From positions 1-50,250 of the IMG/VR virus record IMGVR_UViG_3300045988_081576: a stretch of 50,250 nucleotides of DNA. One strand, written 5' to 3'. Source of the DNA: a virus. The position numbers were made by a program, and so were the translations under genes. Shown here in pieces: positions 1 to 50,250 of this stretch; position 1 is the stretch's first letter; each line of letters begins with the position of its first letter. The notes below the pieces were generated by a model. That model did no database searches. It was not told where the DNA came from and worked only from the letters and a program-made list of their open reading frames with translations.

Positions 1-55
1 AAAGCGCTACATGACAAAGAAAGAAATGGCGTACATGTACTCCGTTTCTCAAGGT
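1..55. repeat. Terminal direct repeat; bases 1..55 are identical to 50196..50250 (circular-contig assembly overlap or terminal redundancy)
   Basis: Exact 55-nt identity read directly at both window ends; the cro-like ORF continues in frame across the junction. Confidence 0.9.
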
Positions 56-5599: not shown

Positions 5600-5628
5600 T
5601 TGCACATTGCTGTTACATCATGTAACCT
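5600..5628 (+). promoter_or_regulatory. Conserved early promoter copy A: TTGCAC, 17 bp, TAACCT, with the spacer palindrome GTTACATcATGTAAC
   Basis: -35/-10-like hexamers at 17-bp spacing. Same architecture as the sites at 7068, 11368, 15165, 17033 and 50114, followed by the conserved leader before ATG 5686. Confidence 0.5.
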
Positions 5629-7057: not shown

Positions 7058-7096
7058 TTGCACCAACTTGCATCATGTAACAACACCATGTAACAT
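7058..7096 (+). promoter_or_regulatory. Conserved early promoter copy B: TTGCAC/TTGCAT, 17 bp, TAACAT, with two ATGTAACA copies
   Basis: TTGCAT (7068), 17 bp, TAACAT (7091), followed by the GGTGTG block and leader CCCCACACCAACCAAAGGAGACACC before ATG 7146. Confidence 0.5.
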
Positions 7097-9273: not shown

Positions 9274-9315
9274 TCGAGCACTACTCGCAGCCGCCGACTA
9301 CGCAAAGGAATAAAC

Positions 9316-9690
9316 ATGACCACAAACGAACTAAACCTTCCACCCAGCCACGACACCCGCCGATTCACCCACCACGGATACCAATGCGCAGTACTGATGG
9401 GGCCAATGACCATCAACGGGTACGTTGCCCTCCCAGACGGGCACCCGTGGCTTGATTATCCAACCCCGCTGGAAGTCCACCCCGACATCGACGTTCACGG
9501 TGGAATCACCTATTACTACGGCAACATCATCGGCTTCGACACCAATCACTTCGGTGACGGCCAGCACCCCGATGCCCCATACGGGAACACGTTCCGCTTC
9601 ACCGGCCATATCTGGAATTGGGATGAGGTTGAGGCAGAAACCCGTCGACTCGCCACACAAGCCAAAAACGCAGAAAGGATAGAGAAATGA
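9316..9690 (+). CDS. Hypothetical protein
   Basis: ORF with RBS-like AAGGAATAAAC upstream. Confidence 0.5.
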   Translation: MTTNELNLPPSHDTRRFTHHGYQCAVLMGPMTINGYVALPDGHPWLDYPTPLEVHPDIDVHGGITYYYGNIIGFDTNHFGDGQHPDAPYGNTFRFTGHIWNWDEVEAETRRLATQAKNAERIEK

Positions 9691-10027
9691 CCAACATCGA
9701 CAAAGCCGCTGACCTGCTTTATCAACGCTCAAAAGAACTACTAGGGGTAGACAGCGATGCCGCGCACAGAGCCTGCAAAGAACACGCCCAAGCCCTCGCA
9801 GACGCGGGACTACTCGCAACCGATTTGCCGGAGGAAAACGACCTCGATATTTTCGCGTCAGAGGGTAAAGAGTGGATACAGGTCTGCTCAGACGTCCCCC
9901 ACGTGTGGGCAGCGCCGGACGGGCTAGTCATGGTGCAACGAATCGGCCCCGGAGAACTCACACCCACCGAAGCACGCGAAGTCGCCTACGCCCTACTCTT
10001 AGCCGCCGACTACTCAGAGGAACAAGA

Positions 10028-10031
<4 letters not shown>
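9687..10031 (+). CDS. Hypothetical protein, tandem paralogue A
   Basis: Shares ALADAGLLATDLPE and EAREVAYALLLAADYSEEQE with the next gene (ALAEAGLLAPDLPE; [20 protein letters not shown]). Confidence 0.5.
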
Positions 10032-11313
<1,282 letters not shown>

Positions 11314-11357: not shown

Positions 11358-11396
11358 TTGCATTGATTTGCTACATGTAACACTATGATGTAACAT
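11358..11396 (+). promoter_or_regulatory. Conserved early promoter copy C: TTGCAT/TTGCTA, 17 bp, TAACAT
   Basis: TTGCTA 11368, 17 bp, TAACAT 11391, with ATGTAACA twice, then GGGGGTGTC and leader CACCCCAACCAGAAAGGAAACACC before ATG 11449. Confidence 0.5.
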
Positions 11397-15164: not shown

Positions 15165-15194
15165 TTGCACGATGCCACATGATTGATGTAACTT
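15165..15194 (+). promoter_or_regulatory. Conserved early promoter copy D: TTGCAC, 18 bp, TAACTT, 7 nt upstream of GTG 15202 (leaderless mRNA candidate)
   Basis: Hexamers read directly; the start codon lies at the predicted +1. Confidence 0.4.
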
Positions 15195-16231: not shown

Positions 16232-16521
16232 TGGGAATCGCCGAAAATGCTATTGCGGCTGGTGAAGCGGAACTGAAACGCCTAGGGATGATGGACAATG
16301 ACCCGGTGAATCACCCGCAGCATTACACGGGGTTTAGTAACGGCGCTGAGGTTATCGACATCACGGAGAACCTCACGTTCAACGCCGGAAACGCGGTGAA
16401 GTATGCCGCCCGCGCCGGGCGCACAGATGGACGCAATAAAGGTGCCGTAGCCGAAGACCTGCATAAAGCAATCTGGTATCTCAACCGCGAACTACAACGC
16501 TTAGAGGGTAACCATGAATGA
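16231..16521 (+). CDS. DUF3310-like phage protein (conserved HPxHY motif)
   Basis: NHPQHYTG...EVIDI...NAVKYAAR...DLHKAIWYL pattern recalled from the DUF3310 family. Confidence 0.45.
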   Translation: MGIAENAIAAGEAELKRLGMMDNDPVNHPQHYTGFSNGAEVIDITENLTFNAGNAVKYAARAGRTDGRNKGAVAEDLHKAIWYLNRELQRLEGNHE

Positions 16522-16705
16522 TTTTGAGCGCTCCAAGTGGAATCACCCATCCATGAAGAATCGTATCGATGCTGAAATAATGGCCATGGAACACGGCCTA
16601 GGCATCGACGCGGAAGACCCTCAAGAGATTGAGCCACCCGCAGTAAAGCGGATGAAGCGGGAGGGGCGCAGGAAACCACGGGGGTACACATTCCCATGGC
16701 GATAA
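16514..16705 (+). CDS. Hypothetical protein
   Basis: ORF with ATGA overlap to the upstream gene. Confidence 0.4.
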   Translation: MNDFERSKWNHPSMKNRIDAEIMAMEHGLGIDAEDPQEIEPPAVKRMKREGRRKPRGYTFPWR

Positions 16706-16884
16706 GAGAATGCCCATGCCCCAACAAAATCAGGCACGGCTCCAAACATGCCGCCCTAAACGCCCTGCACCGTGAATGGCGGCGAGGGCGACAAAAGCAC
16801 ATGCCACTGCGTGTCTACAAATGCGTATGCGGAGGATGGCATACAACATCGAAACCCTATAGGTGGTGGAAAAATGAATCGTGA
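16696..16884 (+). CDS. Small Cys/His-rich (zinc-finger-like) basic protein
   Basis: CPCPNK...H...YKCVCGGWH. Confidence 0.4.
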   Translation: MAIRECPCPNKIRHGSKHAALNALHREWRRGRQKHMPLRVYKCVCGGWHTTSKPYRWWKNES

Positions 16885-17053
16885 TTATCATGTGGTTCAG
16901 GTCTATGACCGTTGGGTAGTTGCAACACACTGGTCTATTGAGTCTTTGTCTGATAGGCGGATTATTGCGAACTTTGCTGACAAATCCATGGCCGAAGCCT
17001 GGCTAGAGTCATACACGGCATGGATAGACAAGTTGCACGGCGTAACAGTGTGA
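16874..17053 (+). CDS. Hypothetical protein (59 aa)
   Basis: ATG 16874 after AGGTGGTGGAAAA; in frame with track ORF 16772..17053. Confidence 0.4.
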   Translation: MNRDYHVVQVYDRWVVATHWSIESLSDRRIIANFADKSMAEAWLESYTAWIDKLHGVTV

Positions 17054-17061
17054 TGTAACAT
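17033..17061 (+). promoter_or_regulatory. Conserved early promoter copy E (TTGCAC, 17 bp, TAACAT) facing a 450-bp ORF-poor region
   Basis: Hexamers plus the downstream GGGGTTGTG block read directly. Confidence 0.45.
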
Positions 17062-17164
17062 GGGGTTGTGTTGGTGGCCACGAAGCCTAACACCGCAACC
17101 ACCAAACACCAGGCCTATCACCTGATACAAAGATAGTTCCCGCACTAAGAGGATAGGAAACACA

Positions 17165-17230
17165 ATGAGCTATGAATACCTAACAATCATCGCATTGCTG
17201 GTAAACATTCTTGTGCAGCTTATCGGCTAG
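17165..17230 (+). CDS. Candidate 21-aa hydrophobic peptide (MSYEYLTIIALLVNILVQLIG)
   Basis: AAGAGGA RBS 7 nt upstream of ATG; local low GC; about 100 nt downstream of promoter copy E. Confidence 0.3.
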   Translation: MSYEYLTIIALLVNILVQLIG

Positions 17231-17282
17231 TAGGGGTAAAAAGAGTGCACGTAGCTTAACCCGGCAAAGCACAACCTGATTA

Positions 17283-17307
17283 GGGTGCATGACAATTGGA
17301 TGCACCC
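17283..17307. terminator. Stem-loop GGGTGCAT-(9 nt)-ATGCACCC in the early/late intergenic region
   Basis: 8-bp perfect inverted repeat read directly; a T-run (GTCGTTTTTGTT) lies about 60 nt downstream. Confidence 0.35.
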
Positions 17308-17497
17308 CAACCCGGCAATGATGGTGGTTCAACCCCACCCGTGCACACTAAGGGGATGTAGTCGTTTTTGTTCATTTCGGCGACGCAAGGGCATAACCAG
17401 TGGTTTCCCTGACTTTCACCACACAACGGCACTGTGACCCTGCATTCTCCCAACAAACCTAAACCATAATTCAATAACAAAAAAGGGGTGGACACCA

Positions 17498-17632
17498 ATG
17501 GAACAATTAATCTTCTACACGCTAGTAGCACTCACAACATTCACCATCGTGGATTTAATCGCACTAGTCACAACCTCGCACATGGACAGTGACCATGTTG
17601 GCAAGCACCGCGCAACTAACAATGATGATTAA
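17498..17632 (+). CDS. Small membrane protein (44 aa)
   Basis: ATG 17498 after AAAAAGGGGTGGACACCA; hydrophobic segment LIFYTLVALTTFTIVDLIALV. Confidence 0.35.
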   Translation: MEQLIFYTLVALTTFTIVDLIALVTTSHMDSDHVGKHRATNNDD

Positions 17633-17846
17633 CATGCGCGGCATGGACTCAGTAGACGACATCATCATGCCCCTAGCCACCCTCCGTGTTCAATACGGAA
17701 TCGACATCGAGGGAAACAGTATTACCGCAGTGTCATGGACAGACCCAGAAACAGGTAAGACGGCAGACCACATCCTCCGCAACGGCATCATCGGCTACCT
17801 GCAGGAACTCGAAGCGGCAGAAGTGTTCGAGGGCTGGGATGATTAG
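17589..17846 (+). CDS. Hypothetical protein
   Basis: ORF (GTG start) overlapping the 3' end of the 17498 ORF. Confidence 0.4.
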   Translation: MTMLASTAQLTMMINMRGMDSVDDIIMPLATLRVQYGIDIEGNSITAVSWTDPETGKTADHILRNGIIGYLQELEAAEVFEGWDD

Positions 17847-17875
17847 ATGTCCACGCCACGGTTTAGTCTGTGGGC

Positions 17876-18049
17876 ATGATTCATATTGACCCAGAAATCC
17901 AAGCGATAGTAGATGCACGATGGGCGGCAATGCCCGAAGAATGGCGCAACCTCCCAGACGATGAAGTCACCGCATGCGGAATGCCACTAGGCTTAGTGCA
18001 CCCAGACCTCTACGACGAAAACAACCAACCACGAGATTGGAACAAGTGA
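17876..18049 (+). CDS. Small hypothetical protein (57 aa)
   Basis: ORF below the track cut-off. Confidence 0.3.
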   Translation: MIHIDPEIQAIVDARWAAMPEEWRNLPDDEVTACGMPLGLVHPDLYDENNQPRDWNK

Positions 18050-18307: not shown

Positions 18308-18345
18308 CCGCTAGACAATGCCCCGCGCCTTTTAGGCTGTGGGGC

Positions 18346-18882
18346 ATGACTATGACCCCAATCTCCCAGTTGAAGTTCTACCCCGGTAATGCGCGCCGGG
18401 GAGACATTGACCTTATCGCCGAATCGTTGGAACGCCTGGGCCAATACAAGCCGGTAGTAGTAAACACCGGTGGAAAAGAACCGGAACTAACCAACGTGAT
18501 TCTGGCAGGGAACCATACGGTCATGGCGGCTCAACGCCTAGGCTGGGACACGGTAGATGTGCACCTGGTGGACTTAGATGCGGACGCGGCGAAACGCGTG
18601 GTAATCGTTGATAATCGCGCCAACGATGTCGCCACCTACGAGGTGGAAGAACTGGTTAACCTGCTCACCGAACTACCAGACCTTGAAGCGACCGGCTTTG
18701 ACCGTGACGAGCTGGATGCCATGCTCGAAGCCCTGGATGACTTGGACGAGGAAGTACCGGACAGGCCAGCAGACCCCAAACCAGATGGCTTTAACCTACT
18801 CATTGAATGTGACAGTGTGGAGGAACAGCAACGCATCAAATCCCGCCTACTGGCGGAGGGTGTGACCGTCTCCGAGGTCTAG
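18346..18882 (+). CDS. ParB-like nuclease domain protein (ParBc/Srx fold) with an acidic C-terminus
   Basis: ParB N-terminal domain signature (YPGNARRGDIDLIAESLERLGQYKPVVVN...LAGNHTVMAAQRLGWDTVDV); positioned just upstream of the terminase genes. Confidence 0.65.
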   Translation: MTMTPISQLKFYPGNARRGDIDLIAESLERLGQYKPVVVNTGGKEPELTNVILAGNHTVMAAQRLGWDTVDVHLVDLDADAAKRVVIVDNRANDVATYEVEELVNLLTELPDLEATGFDRDELDAMLEALDDLDEEVPDRPADPKPDGFNLLIECDSVEEQQRIKSRLLAEGVTVSEV

Positions 18883-44227: not shown

Positions 44228-45511
44228 GTGGCTGATATTAGTGGCGGTATTGATCCGTGGCTTGCTGGCGAGCCGGTCTATAAGCAGCCGCCTAATCCTG
44301 CGAATGTTGGTTCCCGTGACCGCACTTGGGGCATCCGCCCTGATTTGTTTGATTCGTTGAATAAGGTAATGCCGAAAAAGGCGACCATTGATGAGTTGTT
44401 GAAGCAGGCGCAGGATCGGTTGGAGGATTCGAAGAAGTTTCTTGCGATGGCTGAGGATGCGCAAGAGCAGGCATTAGCATCATTGCAGGAATCGGAGCGG
44501 GCAACTGAAAAAGCGGAGCAGGCTATTGCGGATTCTCAATCTTCACGCATCCAGTCTGAGCAGGCTGTGGTTGAGGCACAAAAGGCGGTTAAGGCTTCTT
44601 CGGATGCGTTGAAGAATTCTGAGGATGCTTTGTTGGATGGCCGTTATGCGCGTGAGGATGCGGCTAGGGCGCGTGCTTATTCGGAGGCGGCGCAAAAGGA
44701 TGCGGCGGTTGCGCGCACTAATGCCGATGGTGCGCTTAAGGATGCGCGTTCAGCGGTGGAGCAGGCTTCGGCTGCTGATTTGAAGTCGGATGAGGGCAAG
44801 CAGATTGCGATTGCTGCGAATACTAAAGCGATTAAGGCTACGGATGATGCTGTTGAAGCATTGACTAAGGCGTCGCAGGCGAATAGTAATTCTATTTCTG
44901 CGTTGGAGCAGGCTAGTGCTGCGAATGATGAATCCTCTAGGGCGAATTCTAAGGCGATTGAGGCGACTAATCGGGCGTTGGCGGCGACGAATAAGGCGAC
45001 TGAGGCGAATTCATTGGCTATTGAGGCGTCGAATAAATCTATTCGTGCGTTGGAGCAAGCTAGTGATGCGAATACCAAGGCGATTAAGGCGACGAATCAG
45101 GCTGTGGCGGCTGTTGAGTCTGCTAGTGCGGCTAATACTAAGGCGATTGCTGCGCAAGGTGATGCGTCTAAAGCAATTGTGCAGGCTATCGACTCTCAGA
45201 AGGAGAGTGAGCGGCGGCGGCCACGCCCCGTGTTTGCAAAATTTTCTGAGTACAAGAACGGCTATACCGACCCAGAGGGGCTTATAAAGATCACGCCATA
45301 TGAAGTAGGTGATCGTGGTTTTCGTATTACGTGCCTTGGCACGTGGACGGGGACGATGGTGGTGCGCGCTACCGCGATTGCTCCACTGTCGTCGAACTCG
45401 GTCGATTCTGTTCGTGCATATGTTACGAAATCGAGTCGCGTGTTTAACTGTGTTCCGTATGCGGTTCAGTCCACTTACGACACTGCTGATATCACGATCT
45501 TTCCCGAGTAG
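44228..45511 (+). CDS. Tail fibre protein with an Ala-rich 14-aa tandem-repeat coiled coil and a C-terminal globular domain
   Basis: Repeats of the type ANxKAI(K/E)ATNxAxAA, about 10 copies; GTG start. Confidence 0.6.
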   Translation: MADISGGIDPWLAGEPVYKQPPNPANVGSRDRTWGIRPDLFDSLNKVMPKKATIDELLKQAQDRLEDSKKFLAMAEDAQEQALASLQESERATEKAEQAIADSQSSRIQSEQAVVEAQKAVKASSDALKNSEDALLDGRYAREDAARARAYSEAAQKDAAVARTNADGALKDARSAVEQASAADLKSDEGKQIAIAANTKAIKATDDAVEALTKASQANSNSISALEQASAANDESSRANSKAIEATNRALAATNKATEANSLAIEASNKSIRALEQASDANTKAIKATNQAVAAVESASAANTKAIAAQGDASKAIVQAIDSQKESERRRPRPVFAKFSEYKNGYTDPEGLIKITPYEVGDRGFRITCLGTWTGTMVVRATAIAPLSSNSVDSVRAYVTKSSRVFNCVPYAVQSTYDTADITIFPE

Positions 45512-48051: not shown

Positions 48052-48103
48052 TGGAGCCGACGACGGGAATCGAACCCGCGCTAGCAGCTTGGGAAGCTGC
48101 ACC
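48052..48103 (-). other. attP core: 3' portion (anticodon arm to CCA end) of a tRNA-Gly(CCC)-like sequence
   Basis: The reverse complement reads GCAGCTTCCCAAGCTGC (anticodon loop TTCCCAA), then a T-arm GCGGGTTCGATTCCCGT, then an acceptor strand ending CGTCGGCTCCA. No matching 5' half is present. Confidence 0.65.
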
Positions 48104-48215
48104 TTATAGGGGTAAAATGTAACAAAACGGCCTAAACAACAAGGTCGTAAGTTGCACACATTTGTTATGTAGTGTCACAATTAACCACGAATCAACACCA
48201 CTGTGGATCACTTTT

Positions 48216-48251: not shown

Positions 48252-49445
48252 ATGCCCAAAGTCCGCTCCATCGGCAACCTAAACCGTGATACTAAAACAG
48301 GCCTCTACTACCGCGTCCTAGACCTTGGCCACCGCCCCAACGGCAACCGCTGGCGCGTTAGAGTCACCGCCAAAAACAAGCAGCGCCTTAATGCCAAAGT
48401 CAAGGCCAAAGTAGACGAGCTAGAAAACGACACGTACAGCCCAGGCGACATGCCCACCCTAAACATCTGGTGGGAATACTGGTGTGACCACATTGCTTTT
48501 CACCGCGTAAAGCCCAACGTACTGCGCAACTATCGCGGCTATGGACGCAATCACATCCGCCATATCGGCAAAAATAAGCTAGACCAACTAACGCCAGACC
48601 ACGTGCGCTACCTCCACAGGAAAATGCACGACGAGGGACTAAGCGACCGCATGGTGCAAGCCGTCCACAACACACTGTCCAAGTGCCTCAAGGATGCCGT
48701 CGTAGAGGGCAAAATCCCCACCAACCCCTGCGACCGCATGGACAGGCCCAAAGCGAATAGTAAAGAACGTGAATCATTCACCCGCGATGAGGTCACAGCA
48801 ATTATCACCACCGCACAGGGGGATGGGCACATGCTTTACGCACGGTGGCTCATGGCCCTACTTTTGGGCGCTAGGCAGTCGGAATGTTTAGGCCTTGAAT
48901 GGGAGCGCGTAGACCTCGATGCTGGGTTGCTGGATTTATCATGGCAGGTTCAGCGCATCCCGTGGATGCACGGCGAGAATTGCGGATGCCCGCCGCAGGT
49001 TAAGGGGGCACGGTGCCCGATAAAGCGGCCCGCTGCACCATCTGGTTATGAGCATCGTCCGTGCTACATGGGCAAGTGGTTTGTGCGCCCTAAGACTAAA
49101 TCGTCTCAGCGTCTTCTACCGATACCAGCACCATTACTAGCGGAGCTTATGGTGTTACATGAGCGTTCCACGGGTGAGGGGCTAGTCTTCCATGACGACC
49201 GGTTTAGGCCTATCGACAATTCGGATGATGACCTCGCATGGGCAAATCTGTGTGAACGGGCCGGTGTGCGCCCCCTGGTGTTGCATAGCGCCCGGCACAC
49301 GATGGTTTCCTTGTTGCTGGATGCCGGGGTGGATGCTGAAACGATTAGGCAGATTGCGGGCCATTCCACGGTGCTTTCGACGCGTGGCTATATGCATGTT
49401 TCTACGGATGCGGCGAGGGCTGCGTTAGACCGTTTGGGGGAGTGA
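48252..49445 (+). CDS. int: Tyrosine integrase (site-specific recombinase, phage integrase family)
   Basis: C-terminal catalytic region with R...HxxR...Y (LHSARHTMVS ... GHSTVLSTRGYMHV); adjacent to attP. Confidence 0.9.
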   Translation: MPKVRSIGNLNRDTKTGLYYRVLDLGHRPNGNRWRVRVTAKNKQRLNAKVKAKVDELENDTYSPGDMPTLNIWWEYWCDHIAFHRVKPNVLRNYRGYGRNHIRHIGKNKLDQLTPDHVRYLHRKMHDEGLSDRMVQAVHNTLSKCLKDAVVEGKIPTNPCDRMDRPKANSKERESFTRDEVTAIITTAQGDGHMLYARWLMALLLGARQSECLGLEWERVDLDAGLLDLSWQVQRIPWMHGENCGCPPQVKGARCPIKRPAAPSGYEHRPCYMGKWFVRPKTKSSQRLLPIPAPLLAELMVLHERSTGEGLVFHDDRFRPIDNSDDDLAWANLCERAGVRPLVLHSARHTMVSLLLDAGVDAETIRQIAGHSTVLSTRGYMHVSTDAARAALDRLGE

Positions 49446-49647: not shown

Positions 49648-50112
49648 TTATTGTTCGTGCTGCTCCCTGCTGTGTTTTTGTGCATAGTTTCCTGCCTTTA
49701 GGTCACTGACAAGCTGCTGTATGAGTTTAGCTTGCGCTGCGGACAGACCGTTTAGGTCGATGGTTGAAAGACTACCACCATTCGAACGCGTGTACGAAAG
49801 TTCGGGCCACTTGTCATACGGCACCCCCAAACCAACCAAAAGTGTCTCCGCATCCAAATCCAATACCGCCGCAACCTTGATTACGGAATGCGGATCAAGC
49901 ACCAGGGGTGAGCCGTCATAACGGCACCCGCGCTCCAGCTCAACCACCCATTTACGATTACGCCCAACAACCTCAGCTAAATCATTCTGAGTCAGGCCTT
50001 GCGTCTTACGGGCGGCCTTTATCTTTTCGCCAATTGCTTCACTTCCCATAGTGGGAATGATACGTGTAACCGCTGATATTGCACTAATTCCACGCATGAA
50101 ATTACGCGCCAT
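49648..50112 (-). CDS. cI-like repressor (HTH_XRE N-domain plus C-terminal oligomerisation domain)
   Basis: IGEKIKAARKTQGLTQNDLAEVVGRNRKWVVELERG is an XRE HTH; divergent from the cro-like gene, with the promoter/operator region between them. Confidence 0.8.
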   Translation of the reverse strand: MARNFMRGISAISAVTRIIPTMGSEAIGEKIKAARKTQGLTQNDLAEVVGRNRKWVVELERGCRYDGSPLVLDPHSVIKVAAVLDLDAETLLVGLGVPYDKWPELSYTRSNGGSLSTIDLNGLSAAQAKLIQQLVSDLKAGNYAQKHSREQHEQ

Positions 50113-50113
50113 G

Positions 50114-50142
50114 TTGCGTCATAGTGTTACATGGTATAACAT
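50114..50142 (+). promoter_or_regulatory. PR-like promoter (conserved early promoter copy F: TTGCGT, 17 bp, TAACAT) driving the cro-like gene; overlaps the divergent cI start
   Basis: Same architecture and downstream GGGTGTG block as copies A-E; spacer carries TGTTACAT..ATAACAT. Confidence 0.55.
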
Positions 50143-50187: not shown

Positions 50188-50250
50188 ATGCCCGAAAAGC
50201 GCTACATGACAAAGAAAGAAATGGCGTACATGTACTCCGTTTCTCAAGGT
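50188..50250 (+). CDS. 5' end of the cro/excisionase-like gene, continuing at 1..217 across the contig junction
   Basis: ATG 50188 after the conserved leader CCCCAACCAAAGGAAGCACA; the frame is continuous with the ORF at 11..217. Confidence 0.55.
   Translation, partial: MPEKRYMTKKEMAYMYSVSQG

What the first reader, a model, noticed from the sequence alone, without database searches (positions are those of the whole stretch)
17054..17500. 450-bp ORF-poor early/late junction with promoter copy E, a 21-aa hydrophobic peptide ORF and a hairpin: type I toxin or ncRNA candidate, or cos region
This is the only large region free of conventional genes. Promoter copy E (17033..17061) points into it. 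A strong RBS (AAGAGGA) precedes a 21-codon ORF encoding MSYEYLTIIALLVNILVQLIG, a single TM-like helix typical of type I toxins or small membrane modulators. It is followed by an 8-bp stem hairpin (17283..17307), a T-run and a second RBS leading into a 44-aa membrane ORF at 17498. The region is AT-richer than its flanks. It may instead contain cos or the late promoter.
Basis: partly seen in the sequence, partly recalled or inferred. Interest (0 to 1): 0.6.

Follow-up and report, generated by a model that had tools for sequence, protein, structure and literature searches.

The report
Hidden tRNA-like gene beside tiny ORF
The gene-poor stretch at the early/late junction of this Corynebacterium striatum temperate phage is a promoter-driven, conserved leader that holds a real 21-codon membrane-peptide gene and a tRNA-like gene with no usable anticodon arm, which standard tRNA finders miss; it is a modest new variant of phage tRNA-derived RNAs, not a toxin-antitoxin pair or a cos site.

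Summary
The promoter is one of six copies of a phage promoter motif (TTGCnn-N17/18-TAACnT). The 21-codon ORF uses the phage's usual ribosome-binding context. Across relatives it shows 5 synonymous changes against 1 non-synonymous change.

The "8-bp hairpin" is not a terminator. It is the tip of a 47-nt arm that replaces the anticodon arm of a 103-nt tRNA-like gene (17245-17347). Rfam's tRNA model scores it 38.3 bits against a threshold of 29. The acceptor stem, D arm, T arm and tertiary-core bases are canonical. No excision restores an anticodon stem-loop, so the RNA cannot decode.

In a more distant relative the same slot holds ordinary tRNA-Trp and tRNA-Leu genes, and in closer relatives a tRNA-Gln gene sits just downstream of the tRNA-like element.

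The whole ~390-nt block diverges far less than fourfold-degenerate sites in neighbouring genes. There are no compensatory double changes. A common deletion allele removes both the ORF and the 5' three-quarters of the tRNA-like gene, so the module is dispensable.

attP lies elsewhere (48055-48131, next to the integrase). Nothing supports cos or a type I toxin-antitoxin system here.

Best reading: a non-decoding, tRNA-processed small RNA co-transcribed with a small membrane peptide. Its function is unknown, and a decaying tRNA pseudogene remains a serious rival.

The parts
17033..17061 (+). Sigma-A-type promoter: -35 TTGCAC, 17-nt spacer containing GTAACA, -10 TAACAT preceded by ATG. It overlaps the stop codon of the 59-aa gene (16874-17053).
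   Evidence: Six + strand copies of TTGCnn-N17/18-TAACnT in the window. The -35 and -10 do not differ among relatives, though they overlap the 3' codons of the 59-aa gene. TGTAACATG follows the orthologous stop codon in the distant relative L003.
17062..17151 (+). Conserved leader. It has a hairpin (17064-17077 with 17099-17110) with a variable 21-nt loop, then an invariant box CAGGCCTATCACCTGATACAAAGATAGTTCCC.
   Evidence: RNAalifold. One relative carries an extra T that makes the stem a perfect 11 bp. A similar box, GGCCATCACCTCACACAACGATGG, occurs in L003. Divergence is 2-14% against 7.5-25% at fourfold sites.
17152..17230 (+). RBS (GATAGGAAACACA) and 21-codon ORF (17165-17230) encoding MSYEYLTIIALLVNILVQLIG, a small hydrophobic peptide.
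   Evidence: The RBS context matches repeat family D3 with real genes. Relatives show 5 synonymous third-position changes against 1 non-synonymous change (S2G). P = 0.005 counting all substitutions, 0.034 counting transitions only.
17245..17347 (+). tRNA-like gene. Acceptor stem 17245-17251 with 17340-17346. U8 A9 at 17252-17253. D arm 17254-17270. A26 at 17271. A 47-nt arm (17272-17318) in place of the 17-nt anticodon arm. Variable loop TGAT 17319-17322. T arm 17323-17339. Discriminator A at 17347. No encoded CCA.
   Evidence: Rfam RF00005 scores 38.3 bits (GA 29), E 1.5e-6, with 47 nt where the model expects 17. ARAGORN at defaults and the whole-window Rfam gathering search both miss it. The minimum-free-energy fold is a cloverleaf in 6 of 9 haplotypes tested, and 8 of 9 keep the extended central arm.
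17283..17307 (+). It has an 8-bp stem and a 9-nt loop, GACAAUUGG, which does not differ among the 11 haplotypes seen. The loop holds the 6-nt palindrome CAAUUG flanked by 2 purines on one side and 1 on the other.
   Evidence: The basal flanks, 17272-17282 and 17308-17318, are hypervariable: two haplotypes plus a recombinant.
17361..17384 (+). Second hairpin (GTCGTT with GGCGAC, 6 bp). It comes in three sequence versions that all keep pairing. The window's T-run lies inside it.
   Evidence: four stem positions vary on one side only and none is broken.
17387..17444 (+). Nearly invariant 58-nt element (AAGGGCATAACCAGTGG...GTGACCCTGCA). It is predicted to form a long hairpin enclosed, together with hairpin 2, by an outer helix (17352-17359 with 17442-17450). 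The variable cargo region begins immediately after it.
   Evidence: 1-3 differences in 59 aligned columns in every relative, including the deletion alleles. RNAalifold. Cargo differs after GTGACCCTGCA.
17483..17632 (+). RBS (AAGGGGTGG) and 44-aa hydrophobic ORF, the first gene of this phage's cargo set.
   Evidence: It is called as a 44-aa gene in L013, L015, L017, L019 and L031. In other relatives it is replaced by tRNA-Gln or by a type IV cas cassette.

Best explanation
Proposed transcript. The region is the 5' part of a transcription unit started by the last copy of the phage's own promoter motif before the packaging genes. The transcript would carry, in order:
- a structured leader;
- a translated 21-codon ORF that yields a small membrane-inserting peptide;
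- 14 nt later, a 103-nt tRNA-like RNA.

Origin of the tRNA-like gene. It descends from an ordinary phage tRNA gene. This slot holds canonical tRNA genes in relatives. It keeps the 'top half' that host tRNA enzymes read: a 7-bp acceptor stem, a T arm, and the D/T-loop elbow. Its anticodon arm has been replaced by a roughly 13-17-bp irregular helix capped by an invariant 9-nt loop.

Inferred steps, none shown here. RNase P cuts at 17245. A 3' processing enzyme and the CCA-adding enzyme finish the 3' end after 17347. This releases a stable RNA that cannot decode and, as a side effect, cuts the leader between the small ORF and the downstream genes. The conserved apical loop would be the functional end, binding a protein or RNA partner or pairing with itself. 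One possibility is a decoy for host tRNA-binding or tRNA-cleaving factors.

The module is accessory, not essential.
For: Shown here:
- The Rfam tRNA model hits above its gathering score, with intact acceptor, D and T arms.
- The canonical core bases can be read directly from the sequence: U8, A14, A15:U48, G18G19, T54-A58, G53:C61.
- No single excision yields a 5-bp anticodon stem with U33 in any haplotype. The relaxed ARAGORN 'Ile-GAT plus 12-nt intron' call fails because its position 33 is T, C or G among haplotypes.
- Relatives carry tRNA-Trp(CCA) and tRNA-Leu(CAA) (L003) or tRNA-Gln(UUG) (L022) in this intergenic slot, the tRNA-Gln lying just downstream of L022's own tRNA-like copy. My covariance model's best outside hit is the L003 tRNA-Trp, at 27.8 bits.
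- L003 is distant (36% identity in the neighbouring protein). About 110 nt after the orthologous stop codon (window: 192 nt) it also has a non-canonical element with an acceptor stem and a canonical T arm.
- The structural parts of the tRNA-like gene differ at 12 of 567 positions summed over seven relatives. Fourfold sites of adjacent genes in the same pairs differ at 163 of 1045.
- Stem substitutions: 5 G-U-compatible, 1 pair-creating, 2 disruptive.
- The arm flanks differ between haplotypes, yet 8 of 9 haplotypes tested fold into an extended arm.

From the literature:
- An actinobacterial tRNA-like module with a 7-bp acceptor stem (M. smegmatis YrlA) is cut by RNase P and gains CCA in vivo (PMC4201824).

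Small ORF and promoter:
- Coding-type substitution pattern and a genuine RBS context.
- The promoter belongs to a repeat family.
Against: - No transcript data are available.
- There are no compensatory double substitutions anywhere. The relatives are close, so structure is supported only by one-sided changes.
- Two haplotypes carry a stem-breaking change: L017/L018/L053 in the hairpin, and L031 in the D stem.
- A clean deletion from the ORF's RBS to the variable loop is the commonest allele in C. striatum prophages (L020 and L032 groups). The orphaned T-arm remnant there is still 100% identical. Low divergence may therefore reflect recent spread, recombination or another constraint, rather than selection on the tRNA-like fold.
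- Fold energy against shuffles is unremarkable to modest: z = -2.0 for 17245-17348 and -0.55 for 17240-17360.
Confidence: 0.45

Rival explanations
1. Decaying tRNA pseudogene in a tRNA-gene slot. A former decoding tRNA lost its anticodon arm through a rearrangement or insertion. It now has no function of its own. Its apparent conservation comes from recent common ancestry, from recombinational spread of the whole block, or from constraints on the surrounding leader.
For: - The deletion allele is frequent, and the T-arm remnant stays identical without a tRNA context.
- Two haplotypes carry stem-breaking mutations.
- No compensatory changes are seen.
- The whole 390-nt block is conserved to a similar degree, not just the tRNA-like part.
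- A 10-nt direct repeat, AACCCGGCAA (17258-17267 and 17309-17318), hints at a duplication or gene-conversion event in the arm.
Against: - All tertiary-core bases and three perfect stems are retained.
- The apical 25 nt vary at only two positions, both in the stem, and the 9-nt loop is identical across 11 haplotypes, while the adjacent 22 nt are hypervariable.
- About 2% divergence against about 16% at neutral sites.
- A non-canonical tRNA-like element also persists in the corresponding intergenic slot of the distant relative L003.
Confidence: 0.28
2. The block is mainly a cis-acting leader of the late (packaging/structural) operon. Its hairpins and tRNA-like fold would serve as RNA processing, stability or antitermination signals that control read-through into the cargo genes, ParB-like gene, terS and terL. 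The released small RNA would have no role in trans.
For: - It is the last copy of the promoter motif before 30 kb of + strand late genes.
- The leader hairpin, box, hairpin 2 and 3' element are retained in every relative whatever cargo follows, including the deletion alleles.
- The leader architecture (hairpin, then box) recurs in L003.
Against: - No intrinsic terminator is predicted on the + strand for an antiterminator to act on.
- The promoter is the same type as those in front of early genes, so late genes may have a different, unseen promoter.
- A pure processing signal would not need the arm's apical hairpin and loop to be conserved.
Confidence: 0.17
3. Type I toxin-antitoxin module. The 21-aa hydrophobic peptide would be a membrane toxin held in check by an antisense or overlapping small RNA.
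For: - Peptide size and hydrophobicity resemble Ibs-type toxins (recalled from memory).
- The ORF has a good RBS and a coding-type substitution pattern.
- Structured RNA lies adjacent to it.
Against: - No promoter-like site is found on the minus strand in 16500-18000, and no minus-strand copy of the phage promoter motif is found anywhere in the window.
- No match in PHROGs or by tblastn against phage records.
- The ORF is cleanly deleted, with no sign of addiction, in many prophages.
- Its hydrophobic run is only about 16 residues, with no charged tail.
Confidence: 0.06
4. DNA-level packaging site (cos or pac) or another protein-binding site. Conservation would then reflect terminase or regulator recognition rather than RNA function.
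For: - A strongly conserved, AT-richer non-coding block lies upstream of the packaging genes.
- Siphoviruses of Gram-positive hosts often place cos or pac between the early and packaging modules (recalled from memory).
Against: - In the window the block is 1.4-1.9 kb upstream of terS. Relatives hold quite different cargo between it and terS: a tRNA gene with spacer, small genes, or a ~4.7-kb cas cassette.
- Contig ends of relatives fall at scattered positions.
- The assembly is circular with a 55-bp overlap.
- The substitution pattern in stems (only G-U-compatible changes in hairpin 2 and the 3' domain) points to RNA.
Confidence: 0.04

Closest known systems
Canonical phage-encoded tRNA genes in the same intergenic slot in relatives (L003 tRNA-Trp(CCA) and tRNA-Leu(CAA); L022/L036 tRNA-Gln(UUG))
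   Same: - Same genomic slot, after the 59-aa gene and its promoter.
- Same orientation.
- No encoded CCA.
- Near-consensus D arm and T arm. My covariance model scores the L003 tRNA-Trp at 27.8 bits.
   Different: - 47 nt where the anticodon arm should be 17 nt.
- No U33, no anticodon loop, and no excision that restores one.
- Missed by ARAGORN at default settings.
Bacterial Y RNA YrlA, especially that of Mycobacterium smegmatis (Chen et al. 2014, PMC4201824)
   Same: - A non-decoding RNA with a tRNA-like module (T arm, D arm, 7-bp acceptor-like stem) attached to a long helix.
- In an actinobacterium that module is cut by RNase P and gains CCA.
- YrlA-like RNAs also occur in phages.
   Different: - YrlA is defined by an adjacent Ro60/Rsr gene and a Ro-binding helix carrying a GNCGAA motif. 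Its 5' and 3' ends lie in that helix, a permuted topology.
- Here the ends are at the acceptor stem.
- No Rfam YrlA match, and no TROVE-domain protein among the ORFs scanned.
Stable tRNA-like RNAs of phage T4's tRNA cluster (species 1 and 2, rnaC/rnaD), recalled from memory; a literature search here found no open-access text
   Same: Small non-decoding RNAs encoded among phage tRNA genes, co-transcribed with them and matured by the tRNA processing machinery. Function unknown.
   Different: Unrelated sequence and host. T4's RNAs are experimentally observed species, whereas this one is only predicted.
Ibs/Sib-type type I toxins and other very small membrane peptides (recalled from memory)
   Same: An ORF of about 20 codons that is mostly hydrophobic and has its own RBS.
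   Different: No antisense RNA or promoter found. No homology. Frequently deleted in relatives.
HIV-1 dimerisation initiation site kissing loop (recalled from memory)
   Same: A 9-nt hairpin loop made of two purines, a 6-nt self-complementary sequence and one purine. Here the loop is GA-CAAUUG-G.
   Different: Resemblance only. The chance of a 6-nt palindrome somewhere in a 9-nt loop is about 6%. Dimerisation is untested, and the L003 element has no such loop.

Membership tests
Decoding tRNA | 7-bp acceptor stem, discriminator base, T arm with a GTTCRA loop and G53:C61, D arm with G18G19, U8/A14 | tested here: met
   GTGCACG with CGTGCAC, A73, GGTGG-TTCAACC-CCACC, GCTT-AACCCGGCA-AAGC.
Decoding tRNA | 5-bp anticodon stem with a 7-nt loop, U33 and purine 37 | tested here: not met
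   47 nt in place of 17. No excision restores it in any haplotype. The relaxed ARAGORN model has T37, and its position 33 is T, C or G among haplotypes.
Decoding tRNA | Detected by standard tRNA finders or the Rfam gathering score | tested here: inconclusive
   ARAGORN at defaults finds nothing. Rfam gathering on the whole window finds nothing. Rfam on the region alone gives 38.3 bits against a GA of 29.
Intron-containing tRNA | Group I intron (bacteria), or a bulge-helix-bulge intron at 37/38 (archaea and eukaryotes) | tested here: not met
   The insert is about 30 nt, too short for a group I intron. No intron family matched in Rfam. The host is a bacterium. No exon junction gives a canonical arm.
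Intrinsic terminator | G+C-rich stem directly followed by a U tract | tested here: not met
   No + strand terminator-like site in 16500-18000. The T-run starts 58 nt after the hairpin and is absent in relatives.
Type I toxin-antitoxin | Small hydrophobic toxin ORF with an RBS | tested here: met
Type I toxin-antitoxin | Antisense or overlapping antitoxin RNA with its own promoter | tested here: inconclusive
   No minus-strand promoter-like site and no minus-strand copy of the phage promoter motif. Consensus scans are weak evidence of absence.
Type I toxin-antitoxin | Toxicity of the peptide on expression | not testable with these tools
   Needs an expression experiment.
cos / pac site | Virion DNA termini map to the site | not testable with these tools
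   No read data. The assembly is circular, and relatives' contig ends are scattered.
Phage attP | Next to the integrase, shares a tRNA 3' segment with the host, and is split in the integrated prophage | tested here: not met
   The integrase is at 48252-49445. The tRNA-Gly(CCC) 3' fragment is at 48055-48131 on the minus strand. The junction region is contiguous (bridged by a scaffold gap) inside the C. striatum ATCC 6940 chromosome scaffold.
YrlA / bacterial Y RNA | Adjacent Ro60 (TROVE) gene, a Ro-binding helix motif, and a match to the Rfam model | tested here: not met
   No Rfam match. No TROVE domain among the 20 window ORFs scanned with Pfam; not every ORF was scanned. The topology differs.
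tmRNA | tRNA-like domain with G3:U70, a tag reading frame and pseudoknots | tested here: not met
   ARAGORN's tmRNA search finds none, even at a lowered threshold. The pair is G3:C70. The element is only 103 nt.

The most novel reading that the evidence does not exclude
The 17245-17347 element would be a functional member of an undescribed class of phage small RNAs. In this reading a tRNA 'top half' hijacks host RNase P, 3' processing and CCA addition for maturation and stability. It is fused to a long helical arm whose invariant, self-complementary 9-nt loop (GA-CAAUUG-G) and hypervariable base form the working end. Possible roles are a decoy or sponge for host tRNA-targeting defence nucleases or toxins, or a dimerising regulator. 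It would be expressed from an accessory hotspot that in sister phages carries replacement tRNAs (Trp, Leu, Gln) or a type IV-B-like Csf cassette.
Probability: 0.25. Interest if true: 0.65.

Novelty: new variant of a known kind. Interest (0 to 1): 0.42.

Why it matters
- Phage tRNA genes are increasingly seen as counter-measures to host tRNA-cleaving defences. A conserved phage tRNA derivative that has lost decoding capacity but keeps every feature read by tRNA-processing enzymes would point to a non-translational use of the tRNA scaffold in a temperate phage of an emerging multidrug-resistant pathogen, Corynebacterium striatum.
- Standard annotation (ARAGORN, Rfam at gathering settings on a whole contig) leaves the element unannotated. 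Such RNAs may therefore be under-counted.
- The 21-codon ORF is also invisible to gene callers, yet it shows a coding-type substitution pattern.
- If the pseudogene reading is right, the finding is ordinary: a snapshot of tRNA gene decay in a mosaic accessory locus.

Tried and rejected
1. blastn of the region against 50,697 phage records found nothing, even at E = 1. tblastn of the peptide also found nothing.
2. IMG/VR pattern scans with the T arm plus acceptor and with the hairpin found only the C. striatum ATCC 6940 prophage contig. A scan for the L003 element found only L003 itself.
3. A protein-anchored scan with the 85-aa downstream protein found no relatives. The TerL-anchored scan returned only phages at 33-46% identity with no tRNA-like element.
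4. The genome and metagenome scans each added one close relative. There is not enough divergence for covariation: zero compensatory pairs.
5. Intron hypothesis. An exhaustive single-excision search gave no canonical anticodon arm. The relaxed ARAGORN call (Ile-GAT with a 12-nt intron) was rejected on comparative grounds.
6. Class II tRNA with a long variable arm. The candidate anticodon stem has only 3 pairs and G33. Rejected by inspection.
7. Insertion of a small palindromic element with a CAACC target duplication. Removing it leaves only 11 nt for the anticodon arm. Rejected.
8. CRISPR repeat or solitary-repeat mimic linked to the type IV cassette of relatives. No repeats were found in L001. 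The cassette occurs with and without the tRNA-like gene, and the window has the RNA without the cassette. No link was shown.
9. A second tRNA-like reading of 17352-17450 (GGGGATG-TA-GTCG...). It folds as a three-way junction without a T arm and has no Rfam hit. It is left as a possible relic.
10. Pfam and PHROGs gave nothing for the small flanking proteins.
Full report
**Source and context**

The window is a complete circular assembly. Bases 1-55 are identical to 50196-50250, which is the assembly overlap. The sequence is ENA scaffold FERR18-1_SAMN06350157 scaffold_132, from a human-associated metagenome.

Its closest relatives are prophages of Corynebacterium striatum. One cluster is named by NCBI, and the ATCC 6940 chromosome scaffold carries one. 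The phage is temperate:
- tyrosine integrase at 48252-49445;
- an HTH repressor-like gene at 49648-50112 on the minus strand;
- an attP-type 3' fragment of tRNA-Gly(CCC) at 48055-48131 on the minus strand.

Upstream of the finding lie early genes: RNR small chain, two DNA methylases, dUTPase, DUF3310. Downstream lie ParB-like, TerS-like, TerL, portal, capsid, tape measure and endolysin genes. "Early/late junction" is therefore correct. No DNA match exists among 50,697 deposited phage genomes. The nearest cultured TerL is Gordonia phage Jace, at 59.7% identity.

**Observation check**

- Promoter. TTGCAC-N17-TAACAT at 17033-17061 is one of six + strand copies of TTGCnn-N17/18-TAACnT. Each has ATG before the -10 and GTAACA or GTTACA in the spacer (5600, 7068, 11368, 15165, 17033, 50114). 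Each is followed by a gene start. The -35 and -10 are unchanged across relatives, although both overlap the last codons of the 59-aa gene.
- Composition. GC is 48.1% against 54.4% for the genome.
- Corrections. AAGAGGA is not the conserved RBS; GATAGGAA(A/G)CA is, and it matches the context of real genes (family D3). The T-run lies 58 nt after the hairpin, inside a second hairpin, and is replaced in relatives. No terminator-like site is found on the + strand.

**The hairpin belongs to a tRNA-like gene**

Searching 17000-17560 alone against Rfam gave one hit: tRNA (RF00005) at 17245-17347, 38.3 bits (GA 29), E = 1.5e-6. All of the acceptor, D and T arms aligned, but 47 nt occupied the space where the model expects the 17-nt anticodon arm. 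ARAGORN at default settings and Rfam at gathering settings on the whole window both missed it.

The sequence shows these features directly:
- a 7-bp acceptor stem (GTGCACG with CGTGCAC);
- U8 and A14, A15 with U48, and G18G19 in the D loop;
- a GGTGG-TTCAACC-CCACC T arm with G53:C61 and T54-A58;
- discriminator A73, and no encoded CCA. The canonical tRNAs of related phages also lack an encoded CCA.

**It cannot decode**

An exhaustive search for any single excision that would leave a 5-bp stem and a 7-nt loop with U33 found none in seven haplotypes. With introns allowed and thresholds lowered, ARAGORN proposes tRNA-Ile(GAT) with a 12-nt intron. That model needs T37, a 3-4-bp stem and a 23-nt unstructured variable region. 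Its "U33" is T, C or G in different haplotypes. It is not a decoding tRNA.

**Comparative data**

Anchoring on the 59-aa protein just upstream (16874-17053) retrieved about 25 loci with 11 distinct full haplotypes of the region, plus two deletion haplotypes.

*Small ORF.* There are five synonymous third-position changes (TAT/TAC, ATC/ATT at codons 8 and 9, CTG/CTA, ATT/ATC) and one non-synonymous change (S2G). P = 0.005 if all substitutions are equally likely, and 0.034 for transitions only. It is most likely translated.

*tRNA-like gene.*
- Its structural parts (81 nt) differ from the window at 12 of 567 positions summed over seven relatives. Fourfold-degenerate sites in the four adjacent genes of the same pairs differ at 163 of 1045.
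- Stem substitutions: five G-U-compatible, one pair-creating and two disruptive.
- There are no compensatory double changes. Covariation neither supports nor rejects the fold.
- The apical hairpin and its loop GACAAUUGG are essentially invariant.
- The 11 + 11 nt at the base of the arm occur as two very different haplotypes plus a recombinant. Even so, 8 of the 9 haplotypes tested fold into an extended arm of about 13-17 irregular pairs, and 6 of them as a full cloverleaf.

*Other structured parts of the block.*
- Hairpin 2 (17361-17384) exists in three sequence versions that all keep six pairs.
- The leader hairpin (17064-17110) and the 17387-17444 element are retained everywhere.

*Deletion allele.* A clean deletion from the ORF's RBS to the variable loop of the tRNA-like gene is the commonest allele among C. 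striatum prophages (L020 and L032 groups). The module is therefore dispensable. The orphaned T arm there is still identical, which weakens the argument from conservation.

*The slot in other phages.*
- L003 is distant: 36% identity in the anchor protein and 74% in ParB. After the same promoter-like TGTAACATG it has a non-canonical element with an acceptor stem and a canonical T arm (1611-1689), followed by ordinary tRNA-Trp(CCA) and tRNA-Leu(CAA).
- L022 and L036 have an extra tRNA-Gln(UUG).
- A covariance model built from the haplotypes scores the L003 tRNA-Trp at 27.8 bits and the L003 non-canonical element at 13.8 bits.

The locus is thus a tRNA-gene slot, and the window's element is a remodelled tRNA.

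**Mechanism**

Shown:
- a repeated promoter motif;
- an ORF with coding-type constraint;
- a tRNA-like gene with an intact top half and no anticodon arm;
- conserved flanking hairpins;
- dispensability.

Inferred from established knowledge. RNase P and the CCA-adding enzyme recognise the coaxial acceptor/T-arm helix and the elbow, and do not need the anticodon arm. In the actinobacterium M. smegmatis, the tRNA-like module of YrlA, which has a 7-bp acceptor stem, is cut by RNase P and gains CCA in vivo (PMC4201824).

I therefore expect the transcript to be cut at 17245 and after 17347. This would release a stable RNA of about 103 nt plus CCA that cannot decode, and it would separate the small-ORF mRNA from the downstream message.

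What the RNA does in trans is unknown. The invariant loop suggests a binding surface. The loop is two purines, the 6-nt palindrome CAAUUG, then one purine, an arrangement like retroviral kissing loops; the chance of this is about 2-6%. A decoy role against host tRNA-targeting factors is plausible. Sister phages carry Trp, Leu and Gln tRNAs in this slot, and from memory these are species cleaved by actinobacterial VapC toxins. That idea is untested.

**Rivals**

- tRNA pseudogene (0.28). Supported by the deletion allele, the two stem-breaking variants and the absence of covariation.
- A purely cis-acting late-operon leader (0.17).
- Type I toxin-antitoxin (0.06). No antisense promoter, no homologues, and frequent loss.
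- cos/pac or another DNA site (0.04). The block sits 1.4-1.9 kb upstream of terS in the window, with quite different cargo in between in relatives, and contig ends are scattered. Only end mapping can exclude it.
- attP is excluded. It lies next to the integrase, and the junction is contiguous (bridged by a scaffold gap) in the integrated ATCC 6940 prophage.

**Verdict**

The main result is an unannotated, non-decoding tRNA-like gene co-transcribed with a conserved 21-codon ORF in an accessory hotspot of C. striatum temperate phages. This is a new variant of a known kind (phage and bacterial tRNA-derived RNAs), of moderate interest, and its function is open.

Noticed in passing
L001:289-4934 (C. 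striatum ATCC 6940 prophage); also L020, L021, L024-L026, L033, directly after the equivalent of window 17444: Sister prophages carry a type IV CRISPR-Cas effector cassette in place of the window's small cargo genes. It comprises Cas6 (Cas6e-like), Csf1, Csf4/Cas11, Csf2/Cas7 and Csf3/Cas5, followed by a D12 adenine methylase and a CysH-like PAPS-reductase-family protein. No CRISPR array is present in the 5.7-kb contig. Type IV-B is defined as lacking both Cas6 and an array (PMC8175902), so this is an atypical IV-B-like cassette with a Cas6. It sits right behind a conserved structured non-coding RNA block, and which RNA it binds is an open question.
   Followed up: partly
window 48055-48131 (minus strand), next to the integrase at 48252-49445: Probable attP core: the 3' part of a tRNA-Gly(CCC) gene, from the anticodon arm through the acceptor 3' strand. 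It scores below threshold for Rfam tRNA (24.8 bits) because the 5' part is missing. This predicts integration into the host tRNA-Gly(CCC) gene.
   Followed up: partly
window 1-55 and 50196-50250: Identical 55-bp terminal direct repeat, which is the assembler's overlap. The contig is a complete circular genome of 50,195 bp.
   Followed up: yes
window 5600-5628, 7068-7096, 11368-11396, 15165-15194, 17033-17061, 50114-50142: A family of six + strand promoters, TTGCnn-N17/18-TAACnT. Their spacers carry GTAACA or GTTACA half-sites (a near-palindrome, GTTACATCATGTAAC, at 5611-5625), and a G/T-rich initial transcribed region (e.g. GGTGTGT, GGGTGT, GGTTGTGT) follows. They look like operators for a phage repressor overlapping sigma-A promoters. 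No copy lies between 17061 and 50114.
   Followed up: partly
window 18315-18351; L017, L022, L036 and L001 at the equivalent positions: A conserved hairpin (ATGCCCCGC...GTGGGGCAT) sequesters the start codon of the ParB-like gene and marks the right boundary of the variable cargo region. L017 and L036 carry two G-U-compatible one-sided changes at two different stem pairs (C-G to U-G; G-U to G-C). L015 lacks the hairpin.
   Followed up: no
L003:1611-1689, 1818-1891, 2041-2113; L022:3221-3294: Relatives hold other tRNA-type genes in the same slot: a second kind of non-canonical tRNA-like element (acceptor stem and T arm, but two odd central hairpins), plus canonical tRNA-Trp(CCA), tRNA-Leu(CAA) and tRNA-Gln(UUG). 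All three anticodons are one mutation away from a stop-codon suppressor, and from memory these tRNA species are targets of actinobacterial VapC toxins.
   Followed up: partly
window 17352-17450: This stretch starts like a tRNA (GGGGATG-TA-GTCG...) and folds as a three-way junction. The outer helix can pair with CATTCTCC (CAACCCC in relatives). There is no T arm and no Rfam hit. It may be the relic of a second tRNA gene. The leader hairpin, the T arm and this domain all use a (G)GTGG...CCAC(C) stem.
   Followed up: partly
window 44730-45190, inside the ORF at 44228-45511: Degenerate repeats with a 21-nt (7-aa) period in a late-region gene that has no Pfam match. This probably encodes a coiled-coil or fibre segment of a tail protein.
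   Followed up: no
window 9278-10361: Three consecutive small early genes end with near-identical 43-nt 3' ends and RBS junctions (GCxCTACTC..GCCGCCGACTAC..AGGA..ATGAC). This points to a tandem paralogue family.
   Followed up: no
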